The translations under genes and the position numbers were made by a program. 64,000 nt of DNA, taken from assembly GCA_964016885.1 (NCBI GenBank), contig OZ024762.1:10354001-10418000 (forward strand), read 5' to 3'. Positions 17,739 through 62,205 of the stretch are shown piece after piece. How positions within the stretch are numbered: the stretch's first letter is position 1; every line of letters starts with the position of its first letter. The DNA comes from Eledone cirrhosa. Taxonomy: Eukaryota. The notes below the pieces were generated by a model. That model made no database searches, was not told the origin of the DNA, and worked only from the letters and a program-made list of their open reading frames with translations.

Positions 17739-17770
<32 letters not shown>

Positions 17771-17817
17771 GCATATATATGTATGTGTATATATATGTAT
17801 ATATATATATATGTATA

Positions 17818-17886
<69 letters not shown>

Positions 17887-22938: not shown

Positions 22939-22977
<39 letters not shown>

Positions 22978-22992
22978 TATTTATATTTATAT

Positions 22993-24177: not shown

Positions 24178-24954
24178 ATATATATTTATTTATGCCCTTC
24201 TTTCTGTTGTTTTTTAAACTCTGAACTCAGCACCTTTCTGTTGTTCTCCGGGATTCTAGCAAAGTATAATAATATATATACATATATATATATATATCTG
24301 GTAGTCAACCTCAGACTCGAAAAAGCCGCCGCTAGTCGTGATCGTTGGGGTTATAATTAGACTAAAGTGCTTCCACATTGCACCATTAGCTGGTTGTGAT
24401 CATTGGAGAATTTCTTTCTGCGCTGAAAGAGCCTAGGACTAAAAGATATAAATATATATAGATGTCGAAACGGCAGTAGCACAGCCGTTGGGGTCCTGAA
24501 TATTTTCACATCTATATATGCGTGTGTATTCTGCGACATTTATAATTACATAAGCAAGCATATTTGAATAACAAAATTTGAGGTTTAAATACTTTATTTT
24601 TTACCAATAACATAGAGAAAGGCATGAACAACACCACATGTTAATTACTTTAATATTGAAAGTAGGCTTATAAATATTAAAAAAGCAGATTTTTGTATCT
24701 TTCATGGTGGTCTGGTGGGTGATACCAGAGATGGTGGTAGTCCTGGTTTCGATTTCAATCCTAGTCATGGGTTACATATAAGATTTCAATTTTTTTGACT
24801 GGGGTGAAGTGTCTGTCGGTAGAGATCTCAACTCTCACCATACGAAATATATTCAGAAAGAGATATTTCTCCACGCCATCAGTTATCTCGTCTTCATTCC
24901 GTTTCTATATATATATTTTTTTAATAAATAAAGTTCTAACTATAAGTACGACTA

Positions 24955-25280
24955 ATTTACTCAGTAGAGTTGCGCTCTGTGCATGGCGCTGCACGTAACG
25001 TTTCGCGCTTCGCTGTCGTACTTCGGTATGGCATAATCATTCTATGTGTCTGAAGATCGAATCGTTGCGGCGGCAGCCCCGCTCTATGCTGGCCGGCGTC
25101 CCCGCCTCGCATTGAATTTTTACTAAAAAATTCGCCGTTTGAATTACTTGCCCCTGATTGGAACTCTTCTCGTTTGTTGTCATTCTTCTTTATTGAATTA
25201 AACTGTTAACATCGTTTGGATTTACTCGTGTAATTTGATAGAATCAGTCTGGATATTATACTAATGGTGAGAGGTATGTA
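24955..25280 (+). promoter_or_regulatory. CpG-rich promoter/first-exon-like module, copy A
   Basis: Local CpG cluster, UUCG hairpin 25014-25033, ends in donor-like GAG|GTATGT at 25273/25274. Confidence 0.45.
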
Positions 25281-26364
25281 ATGTTTTATTTACCGTATAT
25301 ACACTCACAGACATACATTATTCTATATGCCTTTCATCCTTATGGGGTCGATAAAATAAAGTACCAGTAATGCACTGGATAATTGCTGGCCTTGTGCCAA
25401 AAGTAGAAACAATTATTCTATATACAGAAAGATTCTAGAGACGTACATATTGTTTTATTTAAACCTAAATACACACACAAAACTAGATTTATATATTTAT
25501 AAATGTTCTTTAGCTGAGGTAAAATACCCTCTAATTTACCTATACGAACGCTTTATTTGCCATGTATATTTTAATTCATTGCTAAACACTCGAAAATACA
25601 GTCTTAGATATATATTAACATTCTTTAGTGATTGCATTCACCTCTATAATCCATACACTGGAAGAAACGTTTCCTATCTAGATCAATATACACATATAAA
25701 GCTACATTTATATATACACCTTCATTCTTCTAAAGAGGTATGTAATGTTTTAGTTGTCCCTTAAATTCATCGATAAACACGTAGTTATTCCTGAGACACA
25801 AGAATATATTCCACTATCCTTCATATACAGGAGGAATGTTAGAGACGTATATGTATAATATAACCGTCTTTTTACTAAGAATAATAACTAAAACCCCTTC
25901 ATACTCAGGAAAACTAAACATTATATCTACATACACCGCCTTCTGTCTTATTCATAGTGGTACATTGTTAGAAGTAACTAACTAAGCCTTCTCTCGAAAC
26001 TATCATTGCATATTTTAAAATCCACTTCTTCATATACTATATTTAGGTTTAATCAATACATATATTGATGATTGGAATCATGGTCTTAAGATTACCCAAA
26101 TCGATACTAACTATTACAAATACAGATCTCTCTAAGGCTATGTTACCTACATATTAATTGTTCTGAAAAGATGCATCAGTCTTCTCCTCTATGGAGCAGA
26201 AACGTGGCCCCTCACAAAGACGATTGACAGCAGTGCCCTGAGGACCATCACAGCCTTAGTCTCGTTCAACGCAGTAGCACCTGGTCGGCTCTACTCATGA
26301 TGATGCCGGTCTAGTCTAACAAGAATAGATGTACAAAATACTCGAATATAAGGAAAATGTTATA

Positions 26365-26725
26365 AATAAGTATGCCTATTTGACTCTGTAGAATTGCGGT
26401 TTGTGCGTGGCGCTGCACGTAGCGTTTCTGGCTTCGCTGTCGTACTTAGGTATGGCATGACCACTCGATCGTGTCTGAAGTTCGAATCGTTGCGGGAGTC
26501 GGCCGGGTCCACAGCAGGCTGGCCTACTCTCCCCCACGCATGAGTTTTTGCCAAACAATTTGACGAGAGTTATCTCCCCTTAATTTGAATTATTTTCCCT
26601 TTGTTTACATTGAACTACTTCCGGTTTGTGGAACCCTTCTTACTTTGTTGTCATTTCTTTTCAGTGCATTGAAGTGGTAACATTCTACTTACTTGGATTT
26701 TACGTTCGTGTAAAGAGGTATGTAA
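26365..26725 (+). promoter_or_regulatory. CpG-rich promoter/first-exon-like module, copy B
   Basis: CpG cluster, ETS-type ACTTCCGG, FOX-type TGTTTAC, donor-like GAG|GTATGT at 26717/26718. Confidence 0.5.
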
Positions 26726-28177
26726 AGTTTTATTTGCCGTATATACACACACATTGTTGAGACACAAAAGTAAGTTGCCATGTCTTTTAAAGAAACAAAA
26801 CTAAATATATACACGCAGCTACCTCTTCTAACTAAACATACATGTTACCCTCCTCTATTATGAAACAAAACTAACCATGATCTGTATATATACACACCTC
26901 TTCTAACATGTTACAACTAAATCTTCTCTCGATACTATATACATACTTGTAAGGAAATATAACCAAGCTTCCTCTCTATACACATTTTATCTTCTGTATA
27001 TAAACCTTATACCTGAATACACACACAGATATTCTATATACAAGAAGACACTTTTTCACGTAAATACACAAACACTTCAGGCATATTTATGTATTTGCCG
27101 TAAATTTATTCTAAACCATGTAGAGGAAGAATCCTGGGGACATACGTACACATGAAGCTATATTCATATATAAACGGTCTCCCTTCTATCATAACAGATA
27201 CTTATGAGGCGCAATATACAAACTTGTTCATACTGGAATAATAGACATGAAACTAAACCTTCTCTAGACATGAATATAGAAGCTAAACCATACAGTTATA
27301 TTTTATATCTAACGAAGCATGGTAGCTCCATTACTCTGCCGTAAGACTCCTTACTACTACTTCTAGCATCCTCACCTACTTGATAGCTACATCATCCATA
27401 TATAAACGTTCTTCACTAGATACAAAACTAAACCTTTATATATACACAACTAACCTATTTTATATTCCTAAGGAACAGCACCAGACCTGGAGACTACTAC
27501 AACCCTATCTCCAGAAAGAAAGGTAAATAAATTGTGAAATAAAAGAATAAACCAGTATTTTCCTTTGTTGCCTTATTATTTACTCCCTGTATATATACAC
27601 ACACACTAGACACCTCTTACACTGTAGGAAGACAAAAACCTTCTGTCACTGTATACTAGATTCATATTATATAAATTATTTCCTAGATACACACCTATTA
27701 GAAACAAGCCATCTCTATATACAGGTAAATAGCATCAATGTAGACATGTCTGTATATAAGAAACTGTATTCTATAGAATATATCTAAACCCACATTGTGT
27801 GTCTCTTTAAATTATACACGTGTATGTAGAAAGCTGGAAGTGAACATCATACATATATAAGATAAGAGGTTTTGATCTGTACATACATATCAATACATCC
27901 TCGCTAGATACTACACATACGTCTCTTAGGAAACTACTACTATTGTTCTTTTAGTTGTGTATAAGCATCTCATAGTAGAACGTGTACATGCTTCCTAAGA
28001 AGCAAGAGAGCTAACTGTTCTCCTCTAGACAGGCATACTCACCATATATAAAGCATATCTTCATTGTAAATTTAGAAGTTACACTACACAGATATAAAGA
28101 CAACAACCTACATACATATTAATACCCTTATATCTCTAGACTACTGTATTATATAAATATAGCTAAGGAATTAAAGA

Positions 28178-29176
28178 TGTATGTATGTGTATACATATGT
28201 ATGTATATATACGTATGTATGTACACATACATACGTATATATACAGACATACGTATGTATGTATATATACATACGTGTGTATACATACGTATGTAGATAT
28301 ACATACGTATATATATATATATACTTACGTATGTATGTATACATACATATATATGCATACGTATGTATGGATACATGCATACATATGTATGTATGCATGT
28401 ATCCATACATACGTATGTATGTATATATACATACGTATGTATAAATATATACATACATATGTATGTATACATACATATGTAGACATATACATACATTCGT
28501 ATGTATGTATACATAGACGTATGTATATATAGATACATGCATATGTATACATACGTACGTATGTATATATACATGTATATATACTTACGTATGTATGTGT
28601 ATATATGCATACGTATGTATATATACAGACATATGTATGTATATATACATATGTATGTATACATACGTATGTGTATGTATACATACGTATGTATGTATAT
28701 ATACATACGTATGTATATATATATATGTCTATATACATACGTATGTATGTATATATACATGTATGCATACATGTGTATGTATACATACATATGTATATAT
28801 ACATACACATGTATATATACATACGTATGTATATACATACGTATATATATACATACGTATGTATATACATACGTATATATATACATACGTAGGTATGTAT
28901 ATATACACGTCTGTATGTATGTATACATACATACGTATATGTACACATACATACATATGTATATATACATACGTACGTATATATACATACGTACGTATGT
29001 ATACATATATATATACATACGTATGTATATATATATGTATGTATACATGTATGTATACATACGTATGTGTATATACATATGTATATATATATACATACAT
29101 ACGTATGTATGTATATATACATATGTATGTATGTATATATATACATATGCATGTATGTATATATACATACGTATAT

Positions 29177-29208
<32 letters not shown>

Positions 29209-29242
29209 AGACATATGTATGTATATATATAAACATACATAT
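28178..29242. repeat. Complex (TATG/TACA/TACG)n microsatellite
   Basis: Direct reading; rearranged equivalent at about 56886-57878. Confidence 0.95.
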
Positions 29243-30619
29243 AGCTAAGGAGTTGAACTTTTTTCTCTAGATAGAGATAAGTATGTGTATTCTATAGGAT
29301 ACTATTACCTTAAAACCACCTGTATATATACACTTACTTCTATAGAATCCATACATATTAACACCCTTCTATCTCTAGGCATATGTATACAGACAGAAAG
29401 AAAGAAATGGCCTCACTATAATACTGCATTATATACACTACTTTCATGAAAGATGTTTCAAACTGAATTCATACTTCTATTCCTATATACATACTGGGAG
29501 AGATATAGAATACAAATTTATTCTATATACAGAAGGAAATAAACTTACGTATATATACACATTATAAATGTTTATAATATGAAACTTCTTTATTAATACC
29601 TCTATCCCTATATACTTACTGGTAAGTATGAGAGAGATATAGAATATCCACATAACCCTGTATATATAGATATTATAACCTCTTACAGGAGATATAGAAT
29701 ACCTATATACACAGAAAGAAATAAACTTGCTAGGATTACTGTATTATATATATATACATACAGTTTCCATTCTCAAAGAAACTTTTCTATAGCACCACAC
29801 TTACTTCTTTCAGTAAGAAGGATGTTTCTTACTGGGATTCTATAGTGTACATACACATTAATTAATCTATTCTATATATACACTTCTTTCAAGAAGGATG
29901 TTTCTCACTAATTACATAATAATTGAATTCTCTCGCATGTTAATACCTTTTTATCTCTAGGCATGTGTTTAACAATCCACTAGTTATATATACACAGCTG
30001 TTAATTCCTATATATTTAATATGAATGGAAGTTAAACGATCTACATGTAAGATACTACCTGTGTATATATATAAGAAACAAAAATGTGAAATAAAGATCA
30101 ATAAATAAACTACATTTTGTTGTTGGAGTTATTTTATTTCTTGAGACGACTGTGTGTATTTACACACCAAGTTGAGCTAGCGGAGATCTTCAACATACCT
30201 GGAAAGAAGCAGAGGGTATTAATAAAAACAATCCAGATTACACAGCTCTAACACCAATACTTTTCTAGAGGCAGAAATTAAACCTCTTTATCATGAACAG
30301 TTTAGTTTCTTAGGAGAGTGGGTATAGGGATGTGAAATACAGTTTCTTATATGCCTCTAGATAAGGTATTACTGTATATATGGGTTTTTTTAATTATAGA
30401 GAAGGATAGTAAATATAAGCCTTCTAGATGTTACAGAGGAGGCTCTACATACAAAAAGTAGATTCTTTGCTGTGTACACACAATATCTAGTAGTAAGTTT
30501 CTATATATATATAGAAGTGTATTATATACACACATGTGTACAATATTTATATAACAAGGCAGTGTATTCTATAAAAAACTGTATGTATGGGGAGTTTTTT
30601 TCCTCTATTGAGAAGGATA

Positions 30620-33590
30620 GTGCTGTGCTCCCGCAAAGGGTGCTCTACGCCTTGGCCGACCAGGCCCGAAACCCAGGTTAATTAGACTGTCGTTTTCAAA
30701 CTCAACTGAGGCACGTTCATACCTTGTAGCCTCTGATAAAGCTAGGCGTGAAAGTCGGATTGCTTTCCGAACACGCCCTGGTCTTCCACCTGATGTCCGC
30801 CCAAAGTTGCGTGCTGCAGCTTCCCTAAACCGCAGCTCGGTAGAACATGAAAGCTTCAGCCTACGAGATGTTGGGCAGATATGGAAGTTTGTTAAGGCTG
30901 GCGAATCATGGAAAAGAGACACCAGCTGGTCTGAAAACACGTTCGGTCAAATCTGTCGGCAATTCCTTGTGCTGATTTGAACCAATCACAGCAGGAAGTT
31001 TTTTTCTGCGATATACGTATGACCATGTCAACACTGCTACTTGGAGTCGTTTACCGTCCCCCAAATTACCATCAGGACACTCAACTTTGTGATATCCTCA
31101 GAGCTGCTGCCAGGAAGACAGCCACTTATGTTTTCATTGCAGGTGACTTCAATCAGCCTGAGATTGACTGGGAAACCTTTCGTTGGCCGCCAAGTGCAAA
31201 TGACTTCCTTGAGCTGGTGCTGGACTCGAGTTGGTCCCAGGTGGTCACCTCCCCAACGAGAGGTGACAACACTTTGGACCTACTCTTCACCACTACTCCT
31301 GAAACGGTCATTAGTGTTACTGCTGAGGAACCTTTAGGTGACTCTGATCATGCTATGATCATTGCCAATCTATCCCTCATGGGCAGTGACAAGAACCACA
31401 ACCATCTCCAAACTGCTCACTTTGACTGGAATAAAGCAGACTGGAACTGTTACTGCACCGAGTTGCAACGGCCAAACTGGCTTGAGTTCTACGACTCTGG
31501 AGATGTCAACACTGTACTCCAGAACATCCTGAGCTCAATATGGACAGCATGTGCAGCATCAGTGCCACGTAAGCGGAAAAAACATCCCAAAAGCGCAATT
31601 TGGGAGACTGCAGCAGTCTGTCTTGCCAGAAAAGAACGGCGCAATGCTGAACGTGAGTACAAACTTCACAAATCAGACATTAATAGGAAGAGGCGAAATA
31701 GATCGTCCAACCACCTCAAACAGGTGACAAAAAAGGCAGTGCTTCAATTTGAGCAGCGCATAGCAACCAGCCCTGACAGTAAGGTGTTCTGGAAGTATGT
31801 TCACTTAAAGCAGAGGCCTCACTCTCCAGTTGGTCCTCTTCGCAATCCCCACACAAGCCATGCGCAGAGCTCATTGCTGAATGCTATGCAGGCATTTTCA
31901 CTATTGAAGACCAGAGTGTACCATCTCCACCACCTATGACACCGGACTCTATTACAACCATGGAATTTACACCTGCAATGCTGCAACGTCACCTAAAAAA
32001 TAAACGCAGCCATGCCTCTCCTGGTCTTGATGGTGTTACGTACCTGCTTCTTAAACATGGTGGGCACTTCCTTCTACACCAGTTATCACGCTTCTTCCAA
32101 TTCTGTCTGAACAACGGTGCTACTCCAGAACAGTGGAAAACTGCCAGTGTCATTCCTCTGTTCAAAAATGGTGACCGCACATCACCTGTAAACTATCGTC
32201 CAGTCAGTCTTACTAGTTGCATCGCCAAACTGATGGAATCCTGTGTCAGAGAAACACTTTGGAACTTCTGGAGCTCTCACAGTCTTATCCGGCCCTCGCA
32301 ATTTGGATTTATCCCCAACTCCAGCTGCTGTGATCAACTTATAGAGTTTCTTGAGGACATCACCTGGATCACTGATGGCGGCTCATGGGTGGATGTTGTT
32401 TACCTTGACTTTGCGAAGGCCTTCAATTCTGTGCCACACAAAAGGCTTATGGCAAAACTCTTTGCAATGGGTGTGAAGGATGATCTTTTTAACTGGTTGA
32501 AGTCCTTCATTCTCAGTCGAAGAGAGGTAGTCGCGGTTCTGGGACAGCATTCCTCACCATATGAGATGTCATCTGGTGTACCACAGGGATCTGTTCTTGG
32601 CCCCCTCTTGTTTGTGGCATATATTAATGACATAGATGCCAACTTAAGGAATGCCACAGTACTAAAGTACACAGACGACATCAAGCTGTACCTTGAGATA
32701 AAAAGGACAGATCCTGAACACTATAGATCTTGCTTGCAGTCTGACCTGGACACAATACAACAATGGATCTCAGACTGGCAACTCAAGCTAGCTGTGGACA
32801 AGTGCACCACCATGCATTTTGGGAGTAAAAACCCAGCGTCCACATACTCCCTCCACAGCACTAATATCAAGAAGTCTTCCTGTGAACGTGACCTGGGCAT
32901 TACGGTCAGCAGCGATTTGCGTTGGACGAGGCACGTCTCTAAAGTTGTCAAGAGGGCCGAGGGTGTCTTAGCATCACTCAGCAAGACCTTTGTCAGCCGC
33001 TCTCCAGATATCTATTTAAGGCTGTATACAGGCTATGGTGCGACCACACTTAGAATTTGCATCACCAGTCTGGAACCCCTATCTTGCTCAGGACATTGAC
33101 CGCCTGGAAACTGTTCAGAGACGTGCAACCAAGCGAATACCCTCCATCAGGCATCTACCATACTCTGAGCGCCTTGCTTCCCTGGGCATGGATTCATTGA
33201 AGCTCCGACGCCTGGCAACTGACTTGGTAAACCCCCACAAAATTGTTAACCATGTTGCCAACAACAACCCTGAGTACCTTTTTGATTTCCATGTGTCTAA
33301 CACACGTGGACATGCCCACAAAGTAAGAAAACAGCACAGTTCCCATGACTTTCGGAAACATTTTTTCACGCTCAGAGTTGCTGAAGCATGGAACAAACTA
33401 CCTGCATCAGTTGTTAGCTGTCGAGACACTGCATCCTTTAAGGCCTCCAAGCTTCCCGAGATCCGCCAACACTACAGCTAACACATACACACATGTACTT
33501 CCCTGACATTTGTGTATTATTCTATGTACTATATTGACGAGTTGTAGTGCACCTGAGCACTTTACACAATAATTTCATTATTATTATAAT
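30620..33590 (+). mobile_element. CR1/L2-group LINE, 5'-truncated and frameshifted
   Basis: ORF1 end (RLGR..PRLIRLSF); APE endonuclease (VYRPP, GDFN, LDL, SDH); RT (NYRPVSLTS, YLDFAKAF, GVPQGSVLGP, YTDD); C-terminal FFTLRVAEAWNKLP; (ATT)n tail. Confidence 0.93.
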
Positions 33591-34214
33591 GTCTTCTACA
33601 TACAAAAAATAGATGCCTTGATAAAATATCCAGAGTTTTATGTAAGTATCCTCGGGAAAAGTAGTAGAGAAGAGTGTTTTAACTTTGCCTTGTGTGTATG
33701 TAGATGGTGCATATATACGATACTTCGAAGTAAGTGTGTTTATGTATAGAGAGAGGGTCTGTATTCTATATACTACAGTTTCTTATATAGCTCCGGATAC
33801 TGTGTATAATGAGGAGATATACCTTTCTTCTAAGTATATACAGAGAAGGTGTAATAGAGATACGATTATAATATAAATATATAGTTGATATGATGTGCAA
33901 GAGAGAATGCTGAGTTGGAGTAAAGGTGGTGATGCCGAGGTAACTCGACGTAGAAATTACGATGGTATAAGGTATAGAGAGGAAAGTAACATGTATGTTT
34001 AGTTAGAAGAGGTAGCTGCGTGTATATATTATTTGTTTTGTTTCTCGGAAGGAGGTTTAGTTCTGTGAAGAGTGTTTAGAATAAATTTAAAAGACATGGC
34101 AACTAAAACACTACAAGAATGTATTTATATTGAAGAATTAAATGTATGTATATTTCCAAGATAGTGAAATGTATTTTTGTGTCTCAATAATATTCGTGAG
34201 TGTGAATAAAACTT

Positions 34215-34600
34215 TACAAACCTCTTTACACGACCGTAAAATCCAAACCGGTATCGTTAATAGTCCCAGAGTAAGTAGAATGATGTTACCGCTTCAATAC
34301 ACTGAAAAGAAATGACAACAAAGTAAGAAGAGTTCCACAAACCGGAAGTAGTTCAATGTAAACAAAGGGCAAATAATTCAAATTAAGGGGAGATAACTCT
34401 CGTCAAATTGTTTGGCAAAATCTCATGCGAGGGGGAGAGCAGGCCAGCATAAAGCCAGCCTGCTGTGGTCCCGGCCGACCCCCGCAACGATTCGAACTTC
34501 AAACACATAGAATGGTCATGCCATACCGAAATACGACAGCGAAGCCAGAAGCGCCACGCACAAGTCGCAATTCTACAGAGTCAAATAGGCATACTTATAG
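34215..34600 (-). promoter_or_regulatory. CpG-rich promoter/first-exon-like module, copy C (inverted)
   Basis: Reverse complement of copy B within an inverted duplication (about 26037-26860 vs 33985-35278); donor-like GAG|GTTTGT at 34222/34221. Confidence 0.5.
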
Positions 34601-36504
34601 CTAACATTTTCTTTCTTTTTAAAAAAAAAAAAGAAACGGAAAGAAAGCGAGATAACACGACATATTCCGAGTGTTATCTCGTTTTCTTTCCGTTTCTCTT
34701 TCTATATAAATATAACGGGATATATAGCCATTAAGGAACTACTAGTATTTTGTACACATATAACGGGATATACACGAATAGAAGCCAGGGAATATGTAGA
34801 AAGGTGTTGACTTATATAGGGAGTCAATAGTTTAACCGTTTTCGCCAACTACAAATTCTACGTAAATAAGATTCGGATTTTTACCCATTTCTCAGACATA
34901 AGATAGGGAGGAGGGTCACCTTATATTCGAGTATTTTGTACATCTATTCTTGTTAGACTAGACTGGCATCATCATGGGTAGAGCCGACCAGGTGCTACTG
35001 CGTTGAACGAGAGTAAGGCTGTGGGCTGATGCGTCACTCTGTTGGAAACGTGGTGGTCCCATCTGATGTTTTAGATGGTCCTCAGGGCTCTGCTATCGAA
35101 GCTGTCAATCGTCTTTGTGAGGTGCCACATGTCTACAATTAATATGTAGTTAAATATACTTCAAGATGGTAACATAGCCTTAGACAGATCTATATATGTA
35201 ATAGTTAGTGTCGATTTGAGTAATCTTAAGACCATGATTCCAATCATCAATATATGTATTGATGAAACCTAAATATAGTCTGTTCTAGGCTTCTCACCAG
35301 TTTCTTTGGAATTAAGTGTCTGAGAGTATAGGACGCTGAGTGTACTGGAGAAATGTGAAATGGCTTTAAAGACTTACATACAGAACTTCCAAGCTGTGAG
35401 AGTTACATGTATGTATGTACCCGTAACTCCTGAGGGAGGCAACGCATTGACCTACAGTGTTTCTAGGGCTCTTTTAAAAACCTGGCAGAGCCCAGGTCTG
35501 AATACAGCGGATTTCTTCTAGAGAAGTATAGAGGAAGAATCAACCCCGAATGGATGAAAGGCAAAGTTGGCCTTGATGGGATTTGAATTCAGACAGCTGA
35601 AATGAAGGCATTCTATCTGTTACATTTATATATACATACTTTCTTTGTCTAATAAACAAAACTAAATCTTCTCTAAACACACACATAAAGTTACATTTAT
35701 ATAAACGTTCTTCTGTACAAAAACAAGGGTCAACTGAAAAGCTCATCGGCTGATTATGAAGGAGTGAAATCTTGCATGCATTAATTTCAACCCTCCTTAC
35801 TAATAACTGCATTGTTTCTTTCCATTTGGTCAGTCAGCCCTCTTACATAGATACTTCTGATTCTCTTTTTTACTAAGAAACAGAATTAAACCTTCTCTAC
35901 ACAGGAAAATACTACTGCCATCTTCAAAGGAATGTAAATAAACATCCTTATCTAGCGACGAACATGTGAAATAAACCAAACTTTTGCTTTTTCATTTCTT
36001 CTAAGAAACAAGACAGCTAACTCCAATAAGTGTGTATACAAAAAAAATGTCTACACACTTCAGGAAAAGCAAAATTTGTATAAATATATATTTAGCACCC
36101 ATCCACCATCTGAGTGAATCTCTTGGTCAGTGTCCAAGTCTCAGACCCGTACAGCAACACAGATGAATCTTCAAGTCTTTACGAAGGTCCGATCTCAAAC
36201 AGTGACAGGCTTTGCTCCAATGCTGAGGATGGCTCTGAACATTAATCAGTATACACTGAGGATGAAGAGCTCTGAGCTGTACAGGAGCCTCTCGAAAGTA
36301 ACACAGAGGAGATTGAGGTTAGCTGGACATGCTCACTGATATTCAGAGTTGATACTGCACTCAGTGGTCCTGTGGGAGCCCCTTCGCGGACAGAGGAAAT
36401 TTTACCCACCCTAGATATATACATACAAAAGATGAATTTCCATGTTGAGATATCTTGATTCAAGAAATGTATTATTGAATATATATTGAATAAATGTATT
36501 ATTG

Positions 36505-39056
36505 AATAAAGGTGGAGGAGCCAAATTAAGGCCAAAAAGCAGGCTTGGAAAGCATGGCGGGATGGGGGAAGTAGAGAAGACTATCAGGTAGCCAGGAGGG
36601 AAGCTAGGAGACAAGTGTACTTCGCAAGAAGGGAAGCAGAGGAAAGAAAGTTCAAGCATGTTCTACAACGTGAGGACCAAAAACGTGAGGTGTTCAGGAT
36701 TGCCAGGCAATGTGTCAAGGAAAACCGTGATATTGTCGGGGAGAAGTGTGTGCTTAACGATGATGGCATACTTGCCATCACCGACGCTGATAAGAAGGTA
36801 GCTTGGAAGTGTCACTACGAAAGGCTTCTAAATGAGGAGAACAAATGGGAGAAAGACAGTCTCCCCCACATCGACCCAATAGAGGGACCAGCAGTGTTAG
36901 TCCAGGGTAGTACAATAAGCAAGGCAATCAAAGATATGAAGACGGGTAAGGCGGCTGGTCCTTCGGAAATAGTTGCTGAGATGCTGAAGGCATCTGGTTC
37001 GGTGGGACACACCATGGTCACCCGGATAGTTAACCAAGTCGTACAGAATGGGGTTGTTCCGAAGGACTGGCGTAGCAGCATCATCGTTAACTGCTATAAG
37101 GGAAAAGGAGATGCCCTAGATAGGAGTAACTATAGAGGCATTAAATTAATCGACCAGGTCATGAAGGTCACGGAAAAAGTAATAGCGCAACTAATCAGAG
37201 AGAGAATTGATCTAGATGAAATGCAGTTCGGATTTGTGTCAGGCAAAAGTACCACAGACGCTCTTTTCATTGTACGACAACTACAGGAGAAGTACCTAGC
37301 TAAAAGTAAACCCCTATACTTAGCTTTCGTCGACTTGGAGAAAGCCTTCGACAGAGTCCCCCGTTCCATTATCTGGTGGTCTCTTAGAAAACTAGGTGTT
37401 GACGAATGGCTTGTGAGAGCTATACAAGCCATGTATAAAGAAACAGTCAGTAAGGTTAGAATTAACAACGAATATAGTGAAGAGTTTAGCGTAAAAGTTG
37501 GTGTCCATCAGGGCTCTGTTCTTAGCCCCCTACTATTTATTATTGCCCTTCAGGCTATAACAGAGGAGTTCAAGACCGGCTGCCCATGGGAACTCCTATA
37601 CGCAGATGATCTAACGCTCATAGCTGAATCAATGACCGAACTAGAGAAGAAATTCCAAACATGGAAGCACGGCCTAGAATCAAAAGGCCTTAAAATTAAC
37701 CTGGCTAAGACAAAAGTTCTAGTTTGTAGGAAAGAAAATATGGCAGCAGTCCCATCTGGGAAATGGCCATGCTCAGTGTGTAGGAAAGACGTAGGTAGAA
37801 ACTCCATTTTATGTCCCAAATGCAAAGTATGGGTGCATAAAAGATGTAGTGGGATCACAGGTAAGCTAACTAAGAACATAGATTTTACATGTGGCCGGTG
37901 CTCTGGTGCAATAAGTAGCAGCAAGTGCCCACAAATACTAGCTCCTTCAACTGCGCAGAGGGTTCTATAGAAATAGTGGACAGCTTCCGTTACCTGGGTG
38001 ACAAAATCAGCAGTGGGGGAGGGTGCTCTGAAAGTACAGTAGCTAGAGTCAGAACTGGATGGAAAAAGTTCAGAGAGCTTATACCACTATTAGCCGCTAG
38101 AGGGTTCTCCCTAAAAATGAAAGGCAGGTTATACGATGCCTGCATACGAACAGCAATGCTGCATGGCAGTGAGACCTGGGCATTGTGTGCAGAGGATATA
38201 TGCAGACTAGAGAGGAACGAAGCTTGCATGCTCTGCTGGATGTGCAATAGTAATATACGTGAACGGCAAAGCATAAACGAACTAAGGAAAAAATTAGAAA
38301 TAAGAGGGATCAGATGTTGTTTACTCGAGAGAAGGCTACGTTGGTACGGTCACGTGATGCGCATGAAAGACGACAGCTGTATAACAAAGTGCAGGGCAAT
38401 AAAGATAGACGGTAGCCACGGAGTAGGCAGACCCAGAAAAACATGGGACGAGCTGATAAATTCCGACCTCACACGCTTACACCTCTCCAAGACAATGTCA
38501 CTGGACTGAGACCTTTGGCGGTACTCAGTAATAGAGAAGACCCGCCTTACCTAAATACAAAGTAAAAACCTACTACAGTCAGTAGGCATCTCTATCAAAA
38601 CACCCCCCCGTCCCACCACCTCCACACCGCCCCTTTCAATGTACAGTTATGTTGGTCCCACAACATCCAGGCTGAAACAAATGAGATCGTGTAGGTGTCA
38701 CGACAAAAAAACACACAGTCCACGCTGTAAATGTGGCCGTGTAGGCAACACGGTAAAAACCTCCCAGCCCCACACTGTAAATGTGGTTGGTGTTAGGAAG
38801 GGCATCCAGCTGTAGAAAACCCGCCAGACAGTCCACGCTGTAATGTGGCCGTGTAGGCAACACGGTAAAAACCTCCCAGCCCCACACTGTAAATGTGGTT
38901 GGTGTTAGGAAGGGCATCCAACTGTAGAAAACCCGCCAGACAGTCCTATGCAAGCAAGACAACCACTCTTGCCTCAAGTGGGAAAACCCCTGTCCAAACC
39001 CATGCAAGCGTGGAACACGGACGCTAAACCTGATGATGATGATGATGATGATGATG
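36505..39056 (+). mobile_element. RTE-clade LINE, 5'-truncated, RT nearly intact with one frameshift
   Basis: ORFs 36615-37970 and 37925-38509: NYRGIKL, QFGF, AFVDLEKAFDRVP, GVHQGSVLSP, YADD, F.YLG, LHGSETW, RLRWYGH, GRPRKTW; 3' region ends in (ATG)n. Confidence 0.95.
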
Positions 39057-43170: not shown

Positions 43171-44372
43171 GTTAAACCTTGGGAACAGGCCATGATATCA
43201 AATATCTTTAAACCCTTTAGCATTTAAACTGGCCATATCCGACTGCAGCAAGCCACTTATACTGATGTTATGGTATTGTTCTGAAAATAAATATCAAAAT
43301 CTCATAGATTCGATATTATGTGAGATAAATATATAAGATAAATCCTTTACCGTGAAAATATAATAGTAAATATAGAGTAATGTAAATGCTAATGGGTTAA
43401 ACAGCCTCTATTATTAATGCTATCTTCTTTATTTCAGTTCCTTTGAATTCAACCGTGTAAAGAAACTGCTACAATTGAACATTTTGACTTCCCAATGACT
43501 CTTAATATTCTTACCACTGAGAAACGCTTCACCTTTTTCTAAATAAACCAAAAGACTTTCTTGCAAATTATTCAGTTGTTTTGAGTTTTATATTTTATTT
43601 TTATATATATTCCTACATTGTTCTGTGTCATTATATATATGTGTGTGTGTATATATACATATATATATGTGTATATATATATATATATGTGTGTATATAT
43701 ATATATGTATAAATATATGTATATATATACATATATATATATAGGATTTCGCTTCAAGCATAGCTACGGCTTCCTAAATGTTCTTGTAAACATACCGTGT
43801 TTCTTTAGAAATACGAAATTTCTATATATATATGTATATATATATATATATATGTGTATATGTATGTATATATATATATATATATATGTGTATATGTATG
43901 TATATATATATAACAAAGGAGTTGTGGTAAGGAACCAGATGGACCATAACGCAACAGAGTACTCAATACTTAGGGTAGTACAGTGGCTAATAGGAAAATG
44001 TTTGACCTCGACGGCAGAGCTCAAGCCGTTTCGACGGCTATTTCTGGACTGAAATAGCCGTCGAAATGGCTTGAGCTCTGCCATCGGGGTCATACATTTT
44101 CCTATATATATGTGTGTGTGTGTATATACACCTGGCAGAGGGGAAAGCGGCTAATTGGTCTGTCGTCCTTTCTGTCTCTGATTTTTCGGACCCATGGTTT
44201 TTACATATTCCTTTGTTATATTTCGAATACCTGATATCACCGGATTCATATGGAACCCGGTCATTGAAATGATCATGGTATAATAAACCTTTGAGTACTC
44301 TCCACAATATTACACCAAGATTGACCATACGAATGACCAATTCTATTGAGTGGTGAACCAACAAACCTAAAG

Positions 44373-44440
<68 letters not shown>

Positions 44441-44445
44441 ATATA

Positions 44446-44496
<51 letters not shown>

Positions 44497-44548
44497 GTGT
44501 GTATATATATATATATATATGTATGTATATATATATATATATATATAC

Positions 44549-44601
<53 letters not shown>

Positions 44602-44603
44602 TG

Positions 44604-44716
<113 letters not shown>

Positions 44717-44824
44717 ATATATATATATACATTTATGTATATATATGTATGTATATATATGAATGTATATATGTATGTATGTATGCATGTATATATATAT
44801 ATGTATAAACGTTTGTATATGTAT

Positions 44825-45570
44825 AATAAAGCCAAAACAATGCAGGTATGGACATAGAATAAAGAATGCAAAAGATATTGTTGACAATTAGTCTTTTACC
44901 TTAGATTTATTTAAATGTCCTTAATTTTCGAGATAATATCTCTTCTTCAGAGGGAAGTAAAGTGGTTAAACCTTTGTTCTAAATAGCTTGCCAAGTCATG
45001 CGGACAGGAAATGGTATAGAGTATCTGTTCTATCTCTAATATCAAAGAGTTAAGGTTAGGTGGATAAAGAGTAGTCTCCCTTGAGTAGTCTCCTTGTTTT
45101 TTTTTTGTACATGCCTGTTTAAGTGTGTGGGAGAATGCGTGAAGGTGTAAGTATGTGTGTGTGTGTGTGTGTGTGAGTGTGAGAAGATATGTCTATACGT
45201 AAATGTGGGGGATAGATGTTATCTCGTGTTAGAACGGGTCTTTGTGTGTGTAAGAGAGAACAAGTGGAGGTGTAAGCGTGTGTGTGGGAGGGGGGTGTAA
45301 ATATGGGGCTAGATGCTCTATCAAGTTATAAATTGGGTGTTGAGTTCTAGTCTATTATTGATTGGTGGTTGTGTTTTGTCTATAATTAGTGCTTCCTTAA
45401 TTCTAAGATTGCAGAGGTTTCTTTCCTTAGTTTCTATCCTAGCTGTTATGGTTTTGTCGGTGTTTTTGCATTTCACTAGGTGTTTCTTAAATGAGGAAAC
45501 GTTAGTATTGAGGTGTTCTTTTATTCTTATGTGGAGTGGTCTGGTGGTGCTACCTACGTAGAAGTTGCTG
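44825..45570 (-). mobile_element. Penelope-like element 3' end: GIY-YIG C-terminus, 3' UTR and hammerhead-bearing pLTR
   Basis: [31 protein letters not shown] ending at the stop at 45321; about 370 nt downstream on the same strand is CCT-CTGAAGA-AGAGAT(ATT)ATCTC-GAAA-AT-TA-AGG (about 44919-44953). Confidence 0.85.
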
Positions 45571-45599
45571 CATATATATGTATGTATATATATATATAT

Positions 45600-46430
45600 A
45601 TAAAATATTAAAAAAATAATGAATAAAACAATGAAACAGTTCCTTATATTAAACAAAAAAAGTTCATTATTTAACGATCGTTTCTAGGATATATATGTGT
45701 TAGAATTGGCATGCATATTCAACAGATCTATGTACAAAATTATACAAAATTATACAAACTATCAAAATTAAATATACATACCAAACACATATATATGCCG
45801 TCTTCAGAAATAATGAAATATATTTATTGATAATAACAACAATTCAAAATTTCAGGTCTGTTTGGGAACAGAATTCAAATTGACCAATGAAAATACAAAA
45901 AGTTTATGCAGTTAGGTGTGTGTATATACATGTAATTAACTTCGTTCACAGATATGCATAAAGAAATATATATACACACACCTAACTGCATAAACTTTTT
46001 GTATTTTCATTGGTCAATTTGAATTCTGTTCCCAAACAGACCTGAAATTTTGAATTGTTGTTATTATCAATAAATATATTTCATTATTTCTGAAGACGGC
46101 ATATATATGTGTTTGGTATGTATATTTAATTTTGATAGTTTGTATAATTTTGTATAATTTTGTACATAGATCTGTTGAATATGCATGCCAATTCTAACAC
46201 ATATATATCCTAGAAACGATCGTTAAATAATGAACTTTTTTTGTTTAATATAAGGAACTGTTTCATTGTTTTATTCATTATTTTTTTAATATTTTATCTT
46301 GACTCTGTATTCCGTTTATCTTTCACCGAAAGTGATTTTTCATTGCATCTCTTCTTTCCATGATATCCGGATTACATTGAGTTCTTCATACGGATTGGAC
46401 ACTACCGTAAACTCTTGGTAGATTTATCTA
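45600..46430. mobile_element. Young fold-back element inserted in (TA)n, absent from duplicate copy 1
   Basis: 329-bp inverted arms 45600-45928 and 45969-46297, 40-nt spacer, about 130-nt unique tail. Confidence 0.85.
46080..46234 (+). ncRNA. Hammerhead motif with a very long stem II (mirror copy at 45663-45817, minus strand)
   Basis: 10-bp stem I TTCATTATTT/AAATAATGAA; CTGAAGA 46090-46096; 116-nt stem II closed by ATATATATGTGTT/AACACATATATAT; GAAA-CGATCG-TT. Confidence 0.7.
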
Positions 46431-48519
46431 CATATACATATATATCTATGTATATATATATGTATATATATATATGCATATATATGTATGTGTATATATA
46501 TGTATATATATATATATATATGCATATATATGTATGTGTATATATATGTATATATATATATATGTATATATATGTATATATATATATATATATGTATATA
46601 TATGTATATATATCTATATATATCTATATCTATCATCATCGTTTAACGTCTATCTTCCACACTAGCATGGGTTAGATGGGTTTGTCCTATTTAGAGGAGA
46701 GCTGGGTTGGGTGACCGTGACTCACTCATATAGGGCTGTTTTCTACGGCTGGATACCCTTCCTAACGCCAACCACATTTGCAGTGTGGACTGGCTGTTTT
46801 TTACCATGTCACCTACACAATCTCTTTACAGTGTGGACTGGGTGCTTTTTGCCATGTCTCCTACACGACCTCTTTACAGTGTGGACTGGGTGCTTTTGTC
46901 CATGTCTCCTACACGACCTCTTTACAGTGTCGACTGGGTGCTTTTTGCAATGTCTCCTACATGACCACTTTCCCATTGAAAATATCTCTATGTTAATTCA
47001 GAAAAAATGGTAAATCTGATGTAAATGGAATTAAAAATAAGAGATTGATGCAAACAAAAATGTTGAAACCAGGTTATGTGGCAATGACCTCCTAGAGGGG
47101 TATTGTGGAATTAAGTATTGCCTGGTACTTGTGTCAAGTAACAATGATCCAGGGAGGGGCTATGAACGACAGCTGTAATAACATCAACAACAAATATCCA
47201 ACAGTAGTGACAGCTTTCCCACCACCACCAAATAAATAGACAGATAGATAAATATTAAATAGATGAGTCCATTCGTTATGTCAATTATAGTACAGATAAT
47301 ATTGGAAATAGTGTAATAATAATAATAAAATATATATATATATATATATTTATGCAATCAAAAGGTTGTGAGTGCAATTCTCAGACCGAGTGATGTGTTG
47401 TTTCCTTGAGCAAGACACTTTATTTCACGTTGCTCCAGTTTACTCAGCTGTAGAAATGAGATGATAGGGCTGGGGTCCCTATCATTCCACTGTAAAGTGG
47501 TCGTGGGGGTGCCATGGCAAAAAAAAGGCACCCAGCCCACACTGTAAAGTGGTCGTGGAGGTGCCACAGAAAAAAAAGGACCCACCACTCACTGTAAATG
47601 AGGTTGGTGTTAGGAAGGGCATCCAGCTGTAGAAATCATGCCAGAATCGGTTCCCGTCCCAGCCTTGCAAGCAGGGAAAAGCGGACATAAAATAATGATG
47701 ATGATGATGATGATATATAAACAAAATTAGCTCAAATATCGAATCTTGAAATGTGAGTGTATTAGAATTTGTAGTACAATGGAAAAGCTTGGCGTAAAGA
47801 AGCTGTTAAAACAGCAAAATATTGTTGATGTAGCGTTGGGTAAAACATTACCTCGAGGGACAGAGATCAGCGACTCGATTCAAGTTGAATCGAAGAAATG
47901 ATAGGAAGGAAGAAATAGAATGGATGAGAATAGGTGACAAATATTAAAATATGTTCATCAGATCTCAGCCACTGCAGTTTACACACATACATGTTCCCCA
48001 CCAAGGCACAAGTCTGGTCAAGGTGTGTTTGTGGAAGACCAACAGTCACCCATGTATACCAGTCTCCTCTCTCCATGCCACCAATGTTGTCCAAAGGAAA
48101 GGCAATGGCTGATACAACTTGGAACCAGTGATGCCACAACTCATATATACACTCTATATATACATCATGTAAAGTATATATAGACTATGTACATTATCAT
48201 CATCATCGTTTAACGTCCATCTTCCACGCTAGCATTGGTTGAACGGTTTTGTCCCGCTTGAGGCGAGATTGGTCAGGAGACCGTGTCTCGCTCATACAGA
48301 ACTGTCTCTGGCAAGTTTCCTAAGGCTGGAAGTACTTCCTAACATCAACCATATTTACAGTGTGGACTGGGAGCCTTTTTACTGTGTCTCCTACACATTA
48401 TATATACACTATGTACATTATATATACACTATGTTGAGTATATATATACTATGTACTGTATATATACACGATGTACAGTATATATACACTATGTACAGTA
48501 TATATATACTATGTACATA

Positions 48520-51680: not shown

Positions 51681-52865
51681 CAGTGATCCCCAACCTTTAA
51701 TTAAACAAACCTGCTATGTAGCGATGATCAAATTAAACACCAAAATGTAAACAAACAGCCCATAGGTGCTGCCGGATACACGATAACATGTGTAGACGAA
51801 GTAAAACTTTTATTACTGTAATATAAAGTAGAAACCCCTTATTTAAACAAAGCTGCGATGCAGCGATGATCAAAACAAACCTCAAAATGTCAACAAACTT
51901 CTCGTAGGTGCTGTCAGATACACGATAACATGTGTATCTGGAAGTTTGGTCGTATTATATCACTTTCAAATTGACCCCTATTATATTCAAATTATCCCCT
52001 GTGGGGCGTGCACCCCACGTTGAGAATCCCTCATAAATAAATATATGTGAGTGTGTTGCTATGACTGCTATTTCTAGCAGGTTTACTGCAGTCCTGTAGA
52101 CGCACAACAAAAACCGGAAGTGGCAGCCATTAAAAAACTTTGGCTTAAAATCAGGCAAAAGTTTTTTAACAATTTGCCAAGAAAGATAACTCTTGTCTTA
52201 CTTAATCGCAAAAATCGAGGCAAAAATTTTGCGGGTGTGCAGTTTGTTTGGTGTATTTGACTGCTATTTCTAGCATGTATAGACACTTTAGAAATAGCAG
52301 CGAAACACGGGAAACATCAGAAAGAAGGACACACACATTTTTGTCTCGATTTTTGCGATTAAGTAAGACAAGAGTTATCTTTCTTGGCAAAAACACCCTG
52401 GTTTGTTTACATTAAATTTTCTATTGTTTAAAAACTTTTGCCTGATTTTAAGTCAAAGTTTTTTAATGGCTGCCACTTCCTGTTTTTGGTGTGCGTCTAC
52501 AGGACTGCAGAAAACCTGCTAGAAATAGCAGCCATAGCAACACACTCACATATATTTATTCATGAGGGATTCTCAACGTGGGGTGCACGCCCCACAGGGG
52601 ATAATTTGAAAGTGATATAATACGACCCAACTCCCTGTTACACTTCGTCTACAGATGTTATCGTGTATCTGGCAGCACCTGCGAGAAGTTTGTTGACATT
52701 TTGATCATCGCTGCATCGCAGCTTTGTTTAAATAAAGGGTTTCTACTTTATATTACAGTAATAACACTTTTACAAGACTCGGATTGTTTTTATATTAAAG
52801 GGGGTACATAAACATATTTTAAATGTCGAGGTGGGGCATGGTGCAGAGAAGGTTTTAAACCACTG
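51681..52865. mobile_element. hAT-like fold-back element (duplicate of 22993-24177)
   Basis: Essentially identical sequence. Confidence 0.75.
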
Positions 52866-59254: not shown

Positions 59255-62205
59255 GTGCTGTGCTCCCGCAAAGGGTGCTCTACGCCTTGGCCGACCAGGC
59301 CCGAAACCCAGGTTAATTAGACTGTCGTTTTCAAACTCAACTGAGGCACGTTCATACCTTGTAGCCTCTGATAAAGCTAGGCGTGAAAGTCGGATTGCTT
59401 TCCGAACACGCCCTGGTCTTCCACCTGATGTCCGCCCAAAGTTGCGTGCTGCAGCTTCCCTAAACCGCAGCTCGGCAGAACATGAAAGCTTCAGCCTACG
59501 AGATGTTGGGCAGATATGGAAGTTTGTTAAGGCTGGCGAATCATGGAAAAGAGACACCAGCTGGTCTGAAAACACGTTCGGTCAAATCTGTCGGCAATTC
59601 CTTGTGCTGATTTGAACCAATCACAGCAGGAAGTTTTTTTCTGCGATATACGTATGACCATGTCAACACTGCTACTTGGAGTCGTTTACCGTCCCCCAAA
59701 TTACCATCAGGACACTCAACTTTGTGATATCCTCAGAGCTGCTGCCAGGAAGACAGCCACTTATGTTTTCATTGCAGGTGACTTCAATCAGCCTGAGATT
59801 GACTGGGAAACCTTTCGTTGGCCGCCAAGTGCAAATGACTTCCTTGAGCTGGTGCTGGACTCGAGTTGGTCCCAGGTGGTCACCTCCCCAACGAGAGGTG
59901 ACAACACTTTGGACCTACTCTTCACCACTACTCCTGAAACGGCCATTAGTGTTACTGCTGAGGAACCTTTAGGTGACTCTGATCATGCTATGATCATTGC
60001 CAATCTATCCCTCATGGGCAGTGACAAGAACCACAACCATCTCCAAAGTGCTCACTTTGACTGGAATAAAGCAGACTGGAACTGTTACTGCACCGAGTTG
60101 CAATGGCCAAACTGGCTTGAGTTCTACGACTCTGGAGATGTCAACACTGTACTCCAGAACATCCTGAGCAGCATCGGTGCCACGTAAGCGGAAAAAACAT
60201 CCCAAAAGCGCAATTTGGGAGACTGCAGCAGTCTGTCTTGCCAGAAAAGAACGGCGCAATGCTGAACGTGAGTACAAACTTCACAAATCAGACATTAATA
60301 GGAAGAGGCGAAATAGATCGTCCAACCACCTCAAACAGGTGACAAAAAAGGCAGTGCTTCAATTTGAGCAGCGCATAGCAACCAGCCCTGACAGTAAGGT
60401 GTTCTGGAAGTATGTTCACTTAAAGCAGAGGCCTCACTCTCCAGTTGGTCCTCTTCGCAATCCCCACACAAGCCATGCGCAGAGCTCATTGCTGAATGCT
60501 ATTCAGGCATTTTCACTATTGAAGACCAGAGTGTACCATCTCCACCACCTATGACACCGGACTCTATTACAACCATGGAATTTACACCTGCAATGCTGCG
60601 ACGTCACCTAAAAAATCAACGCAACCATGCCTCTCCTGGTCTTGATGGTGTTACGTACCTGCTTCTTAAACGTGGTGGGTACTTCCTTCTACACCAGTTA
60701 TCATGCTTCTTCCAATTCTGTCTGAACAACGGTGCTACTCCAGAACAGTGGAAAACTGCCAGTGTCATTCCTCTGTTCAAAAAGGGTGACCGCACATCAC
60801 CTGTAAACTATCGTCCAGTCAGTCTTACTAGTTGCATCGCCAAACTGATGGAATCCTGTGTCAGAGAAACACTTTGGAACTTCTGGAGCTCTCACAGTCT
60901 TATCCGGCCCTTGCAATTTGGATTTATCCCCAACTCCAGCTGCTGTGATCAACTTATAGAGTTTCTTGAGGACATCACCCGGATCACTGATGGCGGCTCA
61001 TGGGTGGATGTTGTTTACCTTGACTTTGCGAAGGCCTTCAATTCTGTGCCACACAAAAGGCTTATGGCAAAACTCTTTGCAATGGGTGTGAAGGATGATC
61101 TTTTTAACTGGTTGAAGTCCTTCATTCTCAGTCGAAGAGAGGTAGTCACGGTTCTGGGACAGCATTCCTCACCATATGAGATGTCATCTGGTGTACCACA
61201 GGGATCTGTTCTTGGCCCCCTTTTGTTTGTGGCATATATTAATGACATAGATGCCAACTTAAGGAATGCCACAGTACTAAAGTACGCAGACGACATCAAG
61301 CTGTACCTTGAGATAAAAAGGACAGATCCTGAACACTATAGATCTTGCTTGCAGTCTGACCTGGACACAATACAACAATGGATCTCAGACTGGCAACTCA
61401 AGCTAGCTGTGGACAAGTGCACCACCATACATTTTGGGAGTAAAAACCCAGCGTCCACATACTCCCTCCACAGCACTCATATCAAGAAGTCTTCCTGTGA
61501 ACGTGACCTGGGCATTACGGTCAGCAGCGATTTGCGTTGGACGAGGCACGTCTCTAAAGTTGTCAAGAGGGCCGAGGGTGTCTTAGCATCACTCAGCAAG
61601 ACCTTTGTCAGCCGCTCTCCAGATATCTATTTAAGGCTGTATACAGGCTATGGTGCGACCACACTTAGAATTTGCATCACCAGTCTGGAACCCCTATCTT
61701 GCTCAGGACATTGACCGCCTGGAAACTGTTCAGAGACGTGCAACCAAGCGAATACCCTCCATCAGGCATCTACCATACTCTGAGCGCCTTGCTTCCCTGG
61801 GCATGGATTCATTGAAGCTCCAACGTCTGGCAACTGACTTGGTAAACCCCCACAAAATTGTTAACCATGTTGCCAACAACAACCCTGAGTACCTTTTTGA
61901 TTTCCATGTGTCTAACACACGTGGACATGCCCACAAAGTAAGAAAACAGCACAGTTCCCATGACTTTCGGAAACATTTTTTCACGCTCAGAGTTGCTGAA
62001 GCATGGAACAAACTACCTGCATCAGTTGTTAGCTGTCGAGACACTGCATCCTTTAAGGCCTCCATGCTTCCCAAGATCCGCCAACACTACAGCTAACACA
62101 TACACACATGTACTTCCCTGACATTTGTGTATTATTCTATGTACTATATTGACGAGTTGTAGTGCACCTGAGCACTTTACACAATAATTTCATTATTATT
62201 ATAAT
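59255..62205 (+). mobile_element. CR1/L2-group LINE (duplicate)
   Basis: Same structure; keeps YADD but has a 20-bp deletion at about 60169 that frameshifts the endonuclease-RT linker. Confidence 0.93.

What the first reader, a model, noticed from the sequence alone, without database searches (positions are those of the whole stretch)
45600..46430. Recent 700-bp palindrome carrying two opposed long-stem-II hammerheads, present in only one duplicate
Seen: 329-bp arms with no mismatch I could find, plus a tail. At the equivalent site in copy 1 (about 17650-17690) there is only the uninterrupted TA run. Each arm holds a hammerhead whose stem II is 116 nt long, with palindromic stem III ACGATCGT. 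Inference: the element inserted after the duplication, so the family was recently mobile. A transcript from either strand would carry a ribozyme or fold into about 330 bp of dsRNA, a potential ADAR or Dicer substrate.
Basis: partly seen in the sequence, partly recalled or inferred. Interest (0 to 1): 0.8.

Follow-up and report, generated by a model that had tools for sequence, protein, structure and literature searches.

The report
Penelope foldback with likely edited hammerhead
This 832-bp palindrome is two copies of one repeat joined head to head inside a TA run, likely a shortened Penelope-like retrotransposon insertion of a known design; its unusual part is a predicted hammerhead ribozyme with a very long hairpin that is likely edited A-to-I in RNA, even in its catalytic core.

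Summary
In detail: perfect 329-bp arms (45600-45928, 45969-46297), 40-nt spacer, 134-nt tail, absent from copy 1, one hammerhead per arm. The design is the known Penelope-like one: a copy with a tail plus an inverted 5'-truncated copy without it, in (TA)n, hammerheads on opposite strands. Public contigs show the spacer is ordinary family sequence and that both ends recur joined to (TA)n. An unrelated family forms the same structure at 4277-4662, so it is not rare here. 'Inserted after the duplication' is likely but unproven: the copies differ by only 0.47%, perfect arms have P=0.21 even at that age, and copy 1 has its own 1.6-kb loss nearby. No coding parent was found. The unusual part is the ribozyme: a 44-bp stem II and two extra bases before GAAA. 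One run (type not on record, likely RNA) shows five A>G changes at 18-41%, under 0.02% in a genomic-scale run, all in stem II or the core, including A15.1. This points to ADAR editing of the local hairpin rather than of the 329-bp foldback; it lacks a same-individual DNA control.

The parts
45600..45968 (-). Inverted copy of the repeat unit: left arm (45600-45928) plus spacer (45929-45968); reaches 40 nt further 5' than the other copy and has no tail
   Evidence: arm+spacer are contiguous in other runs (X3 piece 9, X7 piece 25) and go on after 45969 into the same non-window sequence in X1, X3, X5
45969..46297 (+). Right arm: direct copy of the unit, ribozyme-sense on +
   Evidence: 329/329; loose ends show 46297 followed by (TA)n in 7 contigs of X1 and 2 of X3
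46298..46431 (+). Tail, 134 nt, on one side only; no clear ORF start
   Evidence: X3 piece 15 (46268-46436, 0 differences), X7 piece 32 (46373-46445, 1 difference)
46080..46234 (+). Predicted type I hammerhead: stem I 46080-89/46225-34, core 46090-96, extra C 46097, stem II 46098-46210 (44 pairs, 5 G.U), extra UA 46211-12, GAAA 46213-16, palindromic stem III 46216-23, predicted cut after 46224
45663..45817 (-). Mirror hammerhead in the left arm, identical sequence
   Evidence: core at 45807, minus strand
46129..46216 (+). Candidate A-to-I sites of family transcripts: 46129, 46191, 46205, 46212, 46216 (A15.1)
   Evidence: 41, 34, 20, 18, 21% in X5; 0-0.016% in X1; 0 in X3 and X7
45572..45599 (.). 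Left part of (TA)n target; no target-site duplication can be resolved
46432..46633 (.). Right part of the TA-rich target, shared with copy 1
45321..45572 (-). Neighbour, separate older element: C-terminal GIY-YIG remnant of a Penelope-like element (Neptune-like linker in homologues)
   Evidence: PF01541, E 1.2e-4; 7 homologues, 46-67%; P0004: RT + Cys linker + GIY-YIG
44947..44983 (-). Minimal hammerhead-like motif downstream of that remnant (stem I only 3 bp)
   Evidence: core at 44950, minus strand; approximate bounds

Best explanation
The element is two copies of one repeat unit joined head to head in a TA run, likely made when a Penelope-like retrotransposon enzyme reverse-transcribed the ribozyme-bearing end of an RNA twice at one nicked site. 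Shown: the right copy runs 45969-46431 and carries a 134-nt tail; the left copy is inverted, lacks the tail and extends 40 nt further 5' (the spacer); both 3' ends face (TA)n; the junction has only 1-2 nt of overlap. Inferred, from the in vitro behaviour of an anole PLE (cuts and extends both strands of AT-rich DNA, starts at two internal sites that bound the tail; PMC11167929): two cDNAs were primed from opposite strands, one from each start site, both stopped early and were joined at their 5' ends. Same template explains identical arms at birth. The enzyme came in trans from a parent not found here. A transcript across the whole palindrome would fold as one long duplex (-536 kcal/mol) and could not form the ribozyme; the hammerhead would form only in family transcripts with one arm, and would likely need pairing of two palindromic stems III. 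Its 44-bp stem II is likely an ADAR substrate. Timing: insertion in copy 2 after the copies split about 65%; loss from copy 1 about 25%; other 10%. Independently, about 30% that the two copies are haplotypes placed in tandem.
For: Anatomy. Spacer is family sequence: contiguous with the left arm in X3 and X7 pieces, and the same continuation after 45969 in X1 (1 contig), X3 (2), X5 (1). Tail-less end joined to (TA)n in X1 (7 contigs) and X3 (2); tailed end joined to TA-type sequence in X3 and X7 pieces. Large family: 2530, 61, 433 and 28 contigs laid in X1, X3, X5, X7 (4 of 24 listed runs laid, 3 studies; X1 may be the assembly's own sample). Hammerhead has PLE traits from PMC4209133 (extra base between 9 and 10.1, G10.1-C11.1, long helix II, palindromic helix III). 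Three of five paired genomic variants keep the pair (G>A 46187, A>G 46207, A>G 46229); sense fold -46.5 versus antisense -26.4. Head-to-head inverted pLTRs with a one-sided tail are typical of PLEs (PMC3846280, PMC8557442 passages). Same design from an unrelated family at 4277-4662. Lies beside a PLE endonuclease remnant. Editing: 5 of 5 X5-specific changes are A>G, in 7-28 contigs each; P about 1e-4 under the X1 spectrum of 4 A>G in 25.
Against: No RT or endonuclease is linked to this family; the element has no ORF and the neighbour remnant shares no DNA similarity with it. Tail is 134 nt, not the 30-40 nt described. The core has two extra bases before GAAA, so it may not cleave; two of five paired variants break end-of-stem pairs (46080, 46114). 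This copy's own junction has no independent confirmation. Perfect arms do not date it after the duplication (P=0.21) and copy 1 has a nearby 1,628-bp loss. X5 is a different sample from X1 with its type not on record, so a few highly represented variant copies could mimic editing; 10 of 50 difference rows were not shown.
Confidence: 0.8

Rival explanations
1. Same element, other history: it was present before the copies split and was lost cleanly from copy 1 by slippage between the flanking TA runs across the extruded palindrome; or the 'copies' are two haplotypes and the element is a heterozygous insertion.
For: P(0 arm mismatches) = 0.21 at 0.47% divergence; copy 1 lacks 1,628 bp that cuts the neighbouring endonuclease remnant, so copy 1 is the derived state there; copy 1 begins at a 200-N gap inside a minisatellite. 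That long palindromes between direct repeats are deletion-prone is recalled knowledge.
Against: No remnant of the element in copy 1; 153 bp of flank between the two indels is intact; no gap lies between the two copies, which favours a true tandem duplication. The haplotype case still means recent mobility.
Confidence: 0.3
2. A foldback DNA transposon or MITE with long terminal inverted repeats and a TA target that happens to carry a hammerhead.
For: Perfect long inverted repeats, TA context, no coding capacity.
Against: The inverted repeats are not terminal: 134 nt of family sequence lie outside one arm; the spacer continues into other sequence in other copies; a second unrelated family shows the same one-sided tail and outward-facing hammerheads.
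Confidence: 0.07
3. An assembly or foldback-read artefact created the palindrome.
For: Arms are 100% identical; the locus is repeat-rich and near a gap.
Against: Both flanks resume colinearly with copy 1; the arms are unequal in a way that matches recurrent family ends in independent runs; an unrelated palindrome of the same design lies at 4277-4662.
Confidence: 0.05
4. The family is a wholly non-autonomous retrozyme-like unit (short, never coding), mobilised by a PLE enzyme, rather than the truncated end of a coding PLE. The insertion mechanism would be the same.
For: No coding sequence in arm, spacer or tail; type I hammerhead; animal retrozymes are proposed to derive from PLE pLTRs (10.64898/2026.07.22.740005, abstract, introduction and part of methods read).
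Against: No head-to-tail tandem units here, which that paper uses to define them; family sequence continues upstream of the spacer for an unknown length.
Confidence: 0.3

Closest known systems
Inverted pLTR insertions of EN+ Penelope-like elements (Penelope/Poseidon, Neptune, Naiad; PMC3846280, PMC8557442, passages read)
   Same: Head-to-head inverted 5'-truncated copy, tail at one end, (TA)n target without clear TSD, hammerhead in the repeat.
   Different: No ORF between or within the repeats; tail 134 nt versus 30-40 nt; parent not identified.
Dual opposite-strand minimal hammerheads of Schistosoma mansoni PLEs (PMC4209133, parts 1-2 of 4 read)
   Same: Two type I motifs 100-700 bp apart on opposite strands, extra base after A9, G10.1-C11.1, palindromic helix III.
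   Different: Helix II is 44 bp over 116 nt rather than 7-8 bp; helix I 10 bp rather than 4-5; two extra bases before G12.
Hyper-edited repeats: lizard Penelope and the self-folding frog Harbinger (PMC5625713, passages read)
   Same: Repeat-derived hairpin edited A-to-I without needing a second copy; Penelope repeats are already known ADAR targets.
   Different: Here the hairpin is a helix of a predicted ribozyme and candidate edits hit the catalytic core (46212, 46216).
Non-LTR retrozymes (10.64898/2026.07.22.740005)
   Same: Short, non-coding, type I hammerhead, likely PLE-mobilised.
   Different: Inverted pair, not head-to-tail tandem.

Membership tests
Autonomous Penelope-like element | RT plus GIY-YIG ORF within the element | tested here: not met
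   No such ORF in 45600-46431; not filed as autonomous
Truncated or non-autonomous PLE insertion | Repeat is the pLTR of an RT-EN parent | not testable with these tools
   No genome held; 0 matches in metagenome and viral contigs; contigs too short
Truncated or non-autonomous PLE insertion | Type I hammerhead motif in the terminal repeat | tested here: met
   0 of 20,000 shuffles as strong
Truncated or non-autonomous PLE insertion | Inverted 5'-truncated copy, head to head | tested here: met
   (spacer is unit sequence; copies end at different 5' points)
Truncated or non-autonomous PLE insertion | Tail at one end only (30-40 nt in print) | tested here: inconclusive
   One-sided extension with recurrent ends, but 134 nt long
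Truncated or non-autonomous PLE insertion | AT-rich or (TA)n target | tested here: met
PLE-type type I hammerhead | Core CUGANGA, GAAA, UH with closing stem I | tested here: met
   H17 is U here and A in 36% of X1 depth
PLE-type type I hammerhead | Extra base after A9 and palindromic helix III | tested here: met
   C46097; ACGATCGT self-duplex -10 kcal/mol
PLE-type type I hammerhead | Stem II closing pair directly next to G12 | tested here: not met
   UA lies between C46210 and G46213 in the best fold; so it is called hammerhead-like, a variant
PLE-type type I hammerhead | Self-cleavage | not testable with these tools
   Needs an assay; contigs cannot show RNA ends
Non-LTR retrozyme | Two or more head-to-tail units each with a hammerhead | tested here: not met
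MITE / foldback DNA transposon | Inverted repeats at both termini | tested here: not met
   134-nt tail lies outside the right arm
MITE / foldback DNA transposon | TA target-site duplication | tested here: inconclusive
   Cannot be resolved in (TA)n

The most novel reading that the evidence does not exclude
A retrotransposon hammerhead whose stem II has grown into a built-in ADAR landing pad, so that host editing sets ribozyme activity: editing at 46212 shifts the fold to a flush core without the extra bases, editing at A15.1 would block cleavage, and edited RNAs get reverse-transcribed back into DNA (all 5 G.U pairs of stem II have the G on the edited 3' strand), which would help explain the puzzling variability of animal PLE hammerheads. 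Editing alone I put at about 0.75; editing that controls cleavage at about 0.2.
Probability: 0.2. Interest if true: 0.75.

Novelty: new variant of a known kind. Interest (0 to 1): 0.42.

Why it matters
The palindrome itself is ordinary for Penelope-like elements, though it is a clean natural record of the two-start, two-strand model of their insertion. The ribozyme variant is what merits follow-up. PLE hammerheads cleave poorly alone and vary more than DNA mutation easily explains (PMC4209133). A 155-nt motif with mapped candidate edits in its core makes two questions directly testable: whether ADAR switches a retroelement ribozyme, and whether edits are written back into genomic copies. Two full-text searches for editing of such ribozymes found no relevant paper; that library lacks most subscription journals.

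Tried and rejected
No whole genome is held, so copy number, empty-site polarity and the parent were not testable. Rfam: 0 matches at gathering score; the 48 weak matches are hairpin or TA noise. No RNA holder listed; X5's type is not on record. Of 20 runs holding part of the stretch (16 studies, 17 organism labels), only 4 were laid; the rest are not used. Summed contig depth falls steeply toward the spacer in X1 and rises past the predicted cut in X5, but contig depth cannot rank parts, so neither is counted as evidence of truncation or cleavage. No listed piece bridges 45968/45969 (32 pieces shown, 3058 not shown), which proves nothing either way; the two 'opposite strand' joints in X5 are the ordinary unit laid on both arms, not proof of a palindrome. 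Exact patterns gave 0 hits in metagenome contigs and viral contigs. ADAR neighbour preference is uninformative: none of 5 sites has a 5' G, but only 8 of 49 As do. The inverted repeat at 23113-24085 has no hammerhead core. Earlier scan notes: nothing. Lunse et al. on PLE hammerhead variants is not held and may describe long stem II forms; PMC5388425 had nothing on I15.1. Supplements of PMC4209133 and PMC8557442 (hammerhead alignments, family consensus files) were not opened and may hold this family or variant.

Full report
Observation. The arms are exact over 329 bp (45600-45928, 45969-46297) with a 40-nt spacer. Relative to copy 1 the extra sequence is 45600-46431, so the tail is 134 nt and copy 1 has only the TA-type run. 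A descriptor scan of the whole window, with a palindromic stem III and a folding filter, printed seven motifs: the two in this element, a second opposed pair at 4562(+)/4377(-), and singles at 6778, 8571 and 44950. None of 20,000 shuffles of the arm gave a motif as strong. Rfam does not see it.

The ribozyme. Stem I has 10 bp, stem II 44 pairs over 116 nt, stem III is a 2-bp stem with a palindromic loop that can self-pair at -10 kcal/mol. The extra base after A9, the G10.1-C11.1 pair and the palindromic helix III match the PLE hammerheads of PMC4209133 (parts 1-2 of 4 read). Two features do not: the length of stem II and two unpaired bases before GAAA. The hammerhead-constrained fold costs only 1.3 kcal/mol over the free fold (-45.2 versus -46.5), and the antisense folds at -26.4. 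A transcript of the whole element folds as one duplex (-536), which would exclude the ribozyme. Activity is untested; natural core insertions can impair cleavage (PMC3088659 passages).

What the family looks like elsewhere. Twenty of 24 listed runs hold part of the stretch. I laid four on 45875-46445: 2530 contigs in X1, 61 in X3, 433 in X5, 28 in X7; X1 may be the source of the assembly. Three results fix the anatomy. Left arm and spacer are contiguous in X3 and X7, and after 45969 they go on into the same non-window sequence in X1, X3 and X5; so the spacer is simply more of the unit, and the palindrome is two copies cut at different 5' points. The arm end at 46297 is followed by (TA)n in 7 X1 and 2 X3 contigs. 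The tail end runs into TA-type sequence in X3 and X7 pieces. Both 3' ends therefore recur. No listed piece bridges this copy's own junction.

Mechanism. Head-to-head inverted repeats with a one-sided tail are typical of PLEs (PMC3846280 and PMC8557442 passages), and opposite-strand hammerhead pairs 100-700 bp apart are reported in Schistosoma. The anole PLE protein cuts and extends both strands of AT-rich DNA and starts at two internal sites that bound the tail (PMC11167929 passages). I infer two primings at one (TA)n site, early termination and a head-to-head join. PMC3846280 proposes self-priming on an antisense template instead; my data do not separate the two. An unrelated family makes the same structure at 4277-4662 (152-bp perfect arms, 26-nt stem II, one-sided tail, TA flanks). 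Next to the site lies a GIY-YIG remnant whose homologue P0004 has RT, a Cys linker and GIY-YIG; the Neptune-like label rests on that linker as described. It is a separate, older element and not shown to be the parent.

Timing. The copies differ at 79 of 16,696 non-simple columns (0.47%); perfect arms have P=0.21 if the element were as old as the split. Copy 1 lacks 1,628 bp that removes the end of the neighbouring remnant, so it has suffered loss nearby, and it begins at an assembly gap. No gap separates the copies. Insertion into copy 2 is the likelier reading, not a proven one. The element is young on either reading.

Candidate editing. Of 40 listed difference rows (10 more not shown), 24 reach 5% in X5; five of these are under 0.1% in X1, and all five are A>G: 46129 (41%), 46191 (34%), 46205 (20%), 46212 (18%), 46216 (21%), in 7-28 contigs each, absent from X3 and X7. 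A>G makes up 10 of 26 changed places in X5 and 4 of 25 in X1. X5 has the same organism label as X1 but 88 rather than 1,394 million letters; I infer RNA, which is not on record, and it is another sample, so alleles are not excluded. No X5-specific T>C is listed, which fits editing of the sense-strand stem II hairpin in family transcripts, not of the 329-bp foldback; the signal cannot be assigned to this copy. 46216 is A15.1; that inosine there changes the cleavage rule is recalled and was not confirmed. Reading 46212 as G moves the best fold to a flush core by only 0.6 kcal/mol, with C-G in place of G-C; an I-C pair is weaker, so this is a hint. All five G.U pairs in stem II have G on the 3' strand, about 1 in 32 from the pair counts; also a hint. 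Penelope repeats are already known ADAR targets in a lizard (PMC5625713 passages). Searches for editing of hammerheads in retroelements gave one irrelevant paper and none; searches for octopus or cephalopod hammerheads gave nothing on this family (listings only, apart from papers named above). That the host is octopus-like is my recall from the TA-rich sequence and a SINE; no call tested it.

Verdict. A real, young, non-coding foldback that works like a Penelope-like insertion (0.8), not filed as an autonomous PLE and with no parent shown. The design is known and occurs twice in this window. The long-stem hammerhead variant with likely core editing lifts it above routine. Interest 0.42; new variant of a known kind.

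Noticed in passing
window 4277-4760: Second foldback of an unrelated family: 152-bp perfect arms, two opposed identical type I hammerheads (cores 4377-, 4562+, 26-nt stem II, palindromic stem III), one-sided tail of about 100 nt, TA flanks.
   Followed up: partly
window 44947-45572 (-): Remnant of a Penelope-like element: GIY-YIG C-terminus, 3' region and a minimal hammerhead-like motif; copy 1 keeps only part of it.
   Followed up: partly
window 43815-45443 versus 17520: 1,628 bp present in copy 2 and absent from copy 1, cutting through the remnant's ORF.
   Followed up: partly
window 16416-35361 and 42715-64000: Two copies of a region of at least 19 kb, 0.47% divergent, unevenly (2-3 substitutions per 2 kb at 20-28 kb, 14-20 at 30-35 kb); copy 1 starts at the N gap inside a 36-37-bp minisatellite.
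   Followed up: partly
window 6778(+) and 8571(+): Single hammerhead-like motifs with palindromic stem III, not in palindromes.
   Followed up: no
window 23113-24085 and 51801-52773: Older inverted repeat (377 matches, 17 mismatches, several indels) without a hammerhead core.
   Followed up: partly
window 30935-33481, 59570-62096, 36510-38509: Broken LINE ORFs (endonuclease plus RT); the first two are the duplicated pair. Family labels not tested.
   Followed up: no
window 46224: H17 is U in this copy but A in 36% of X1 depth and only 4% of X5 depth: subfamilies differ at the predicted cleavage triplet.
   Followed up: no
run X3 pieces 12, 13, 15: Contigs under a different organism label match the element with 0 differences over 85-169 nt: close relatives, horizontal transfer or mislabelling are all open.
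   Followed up: no
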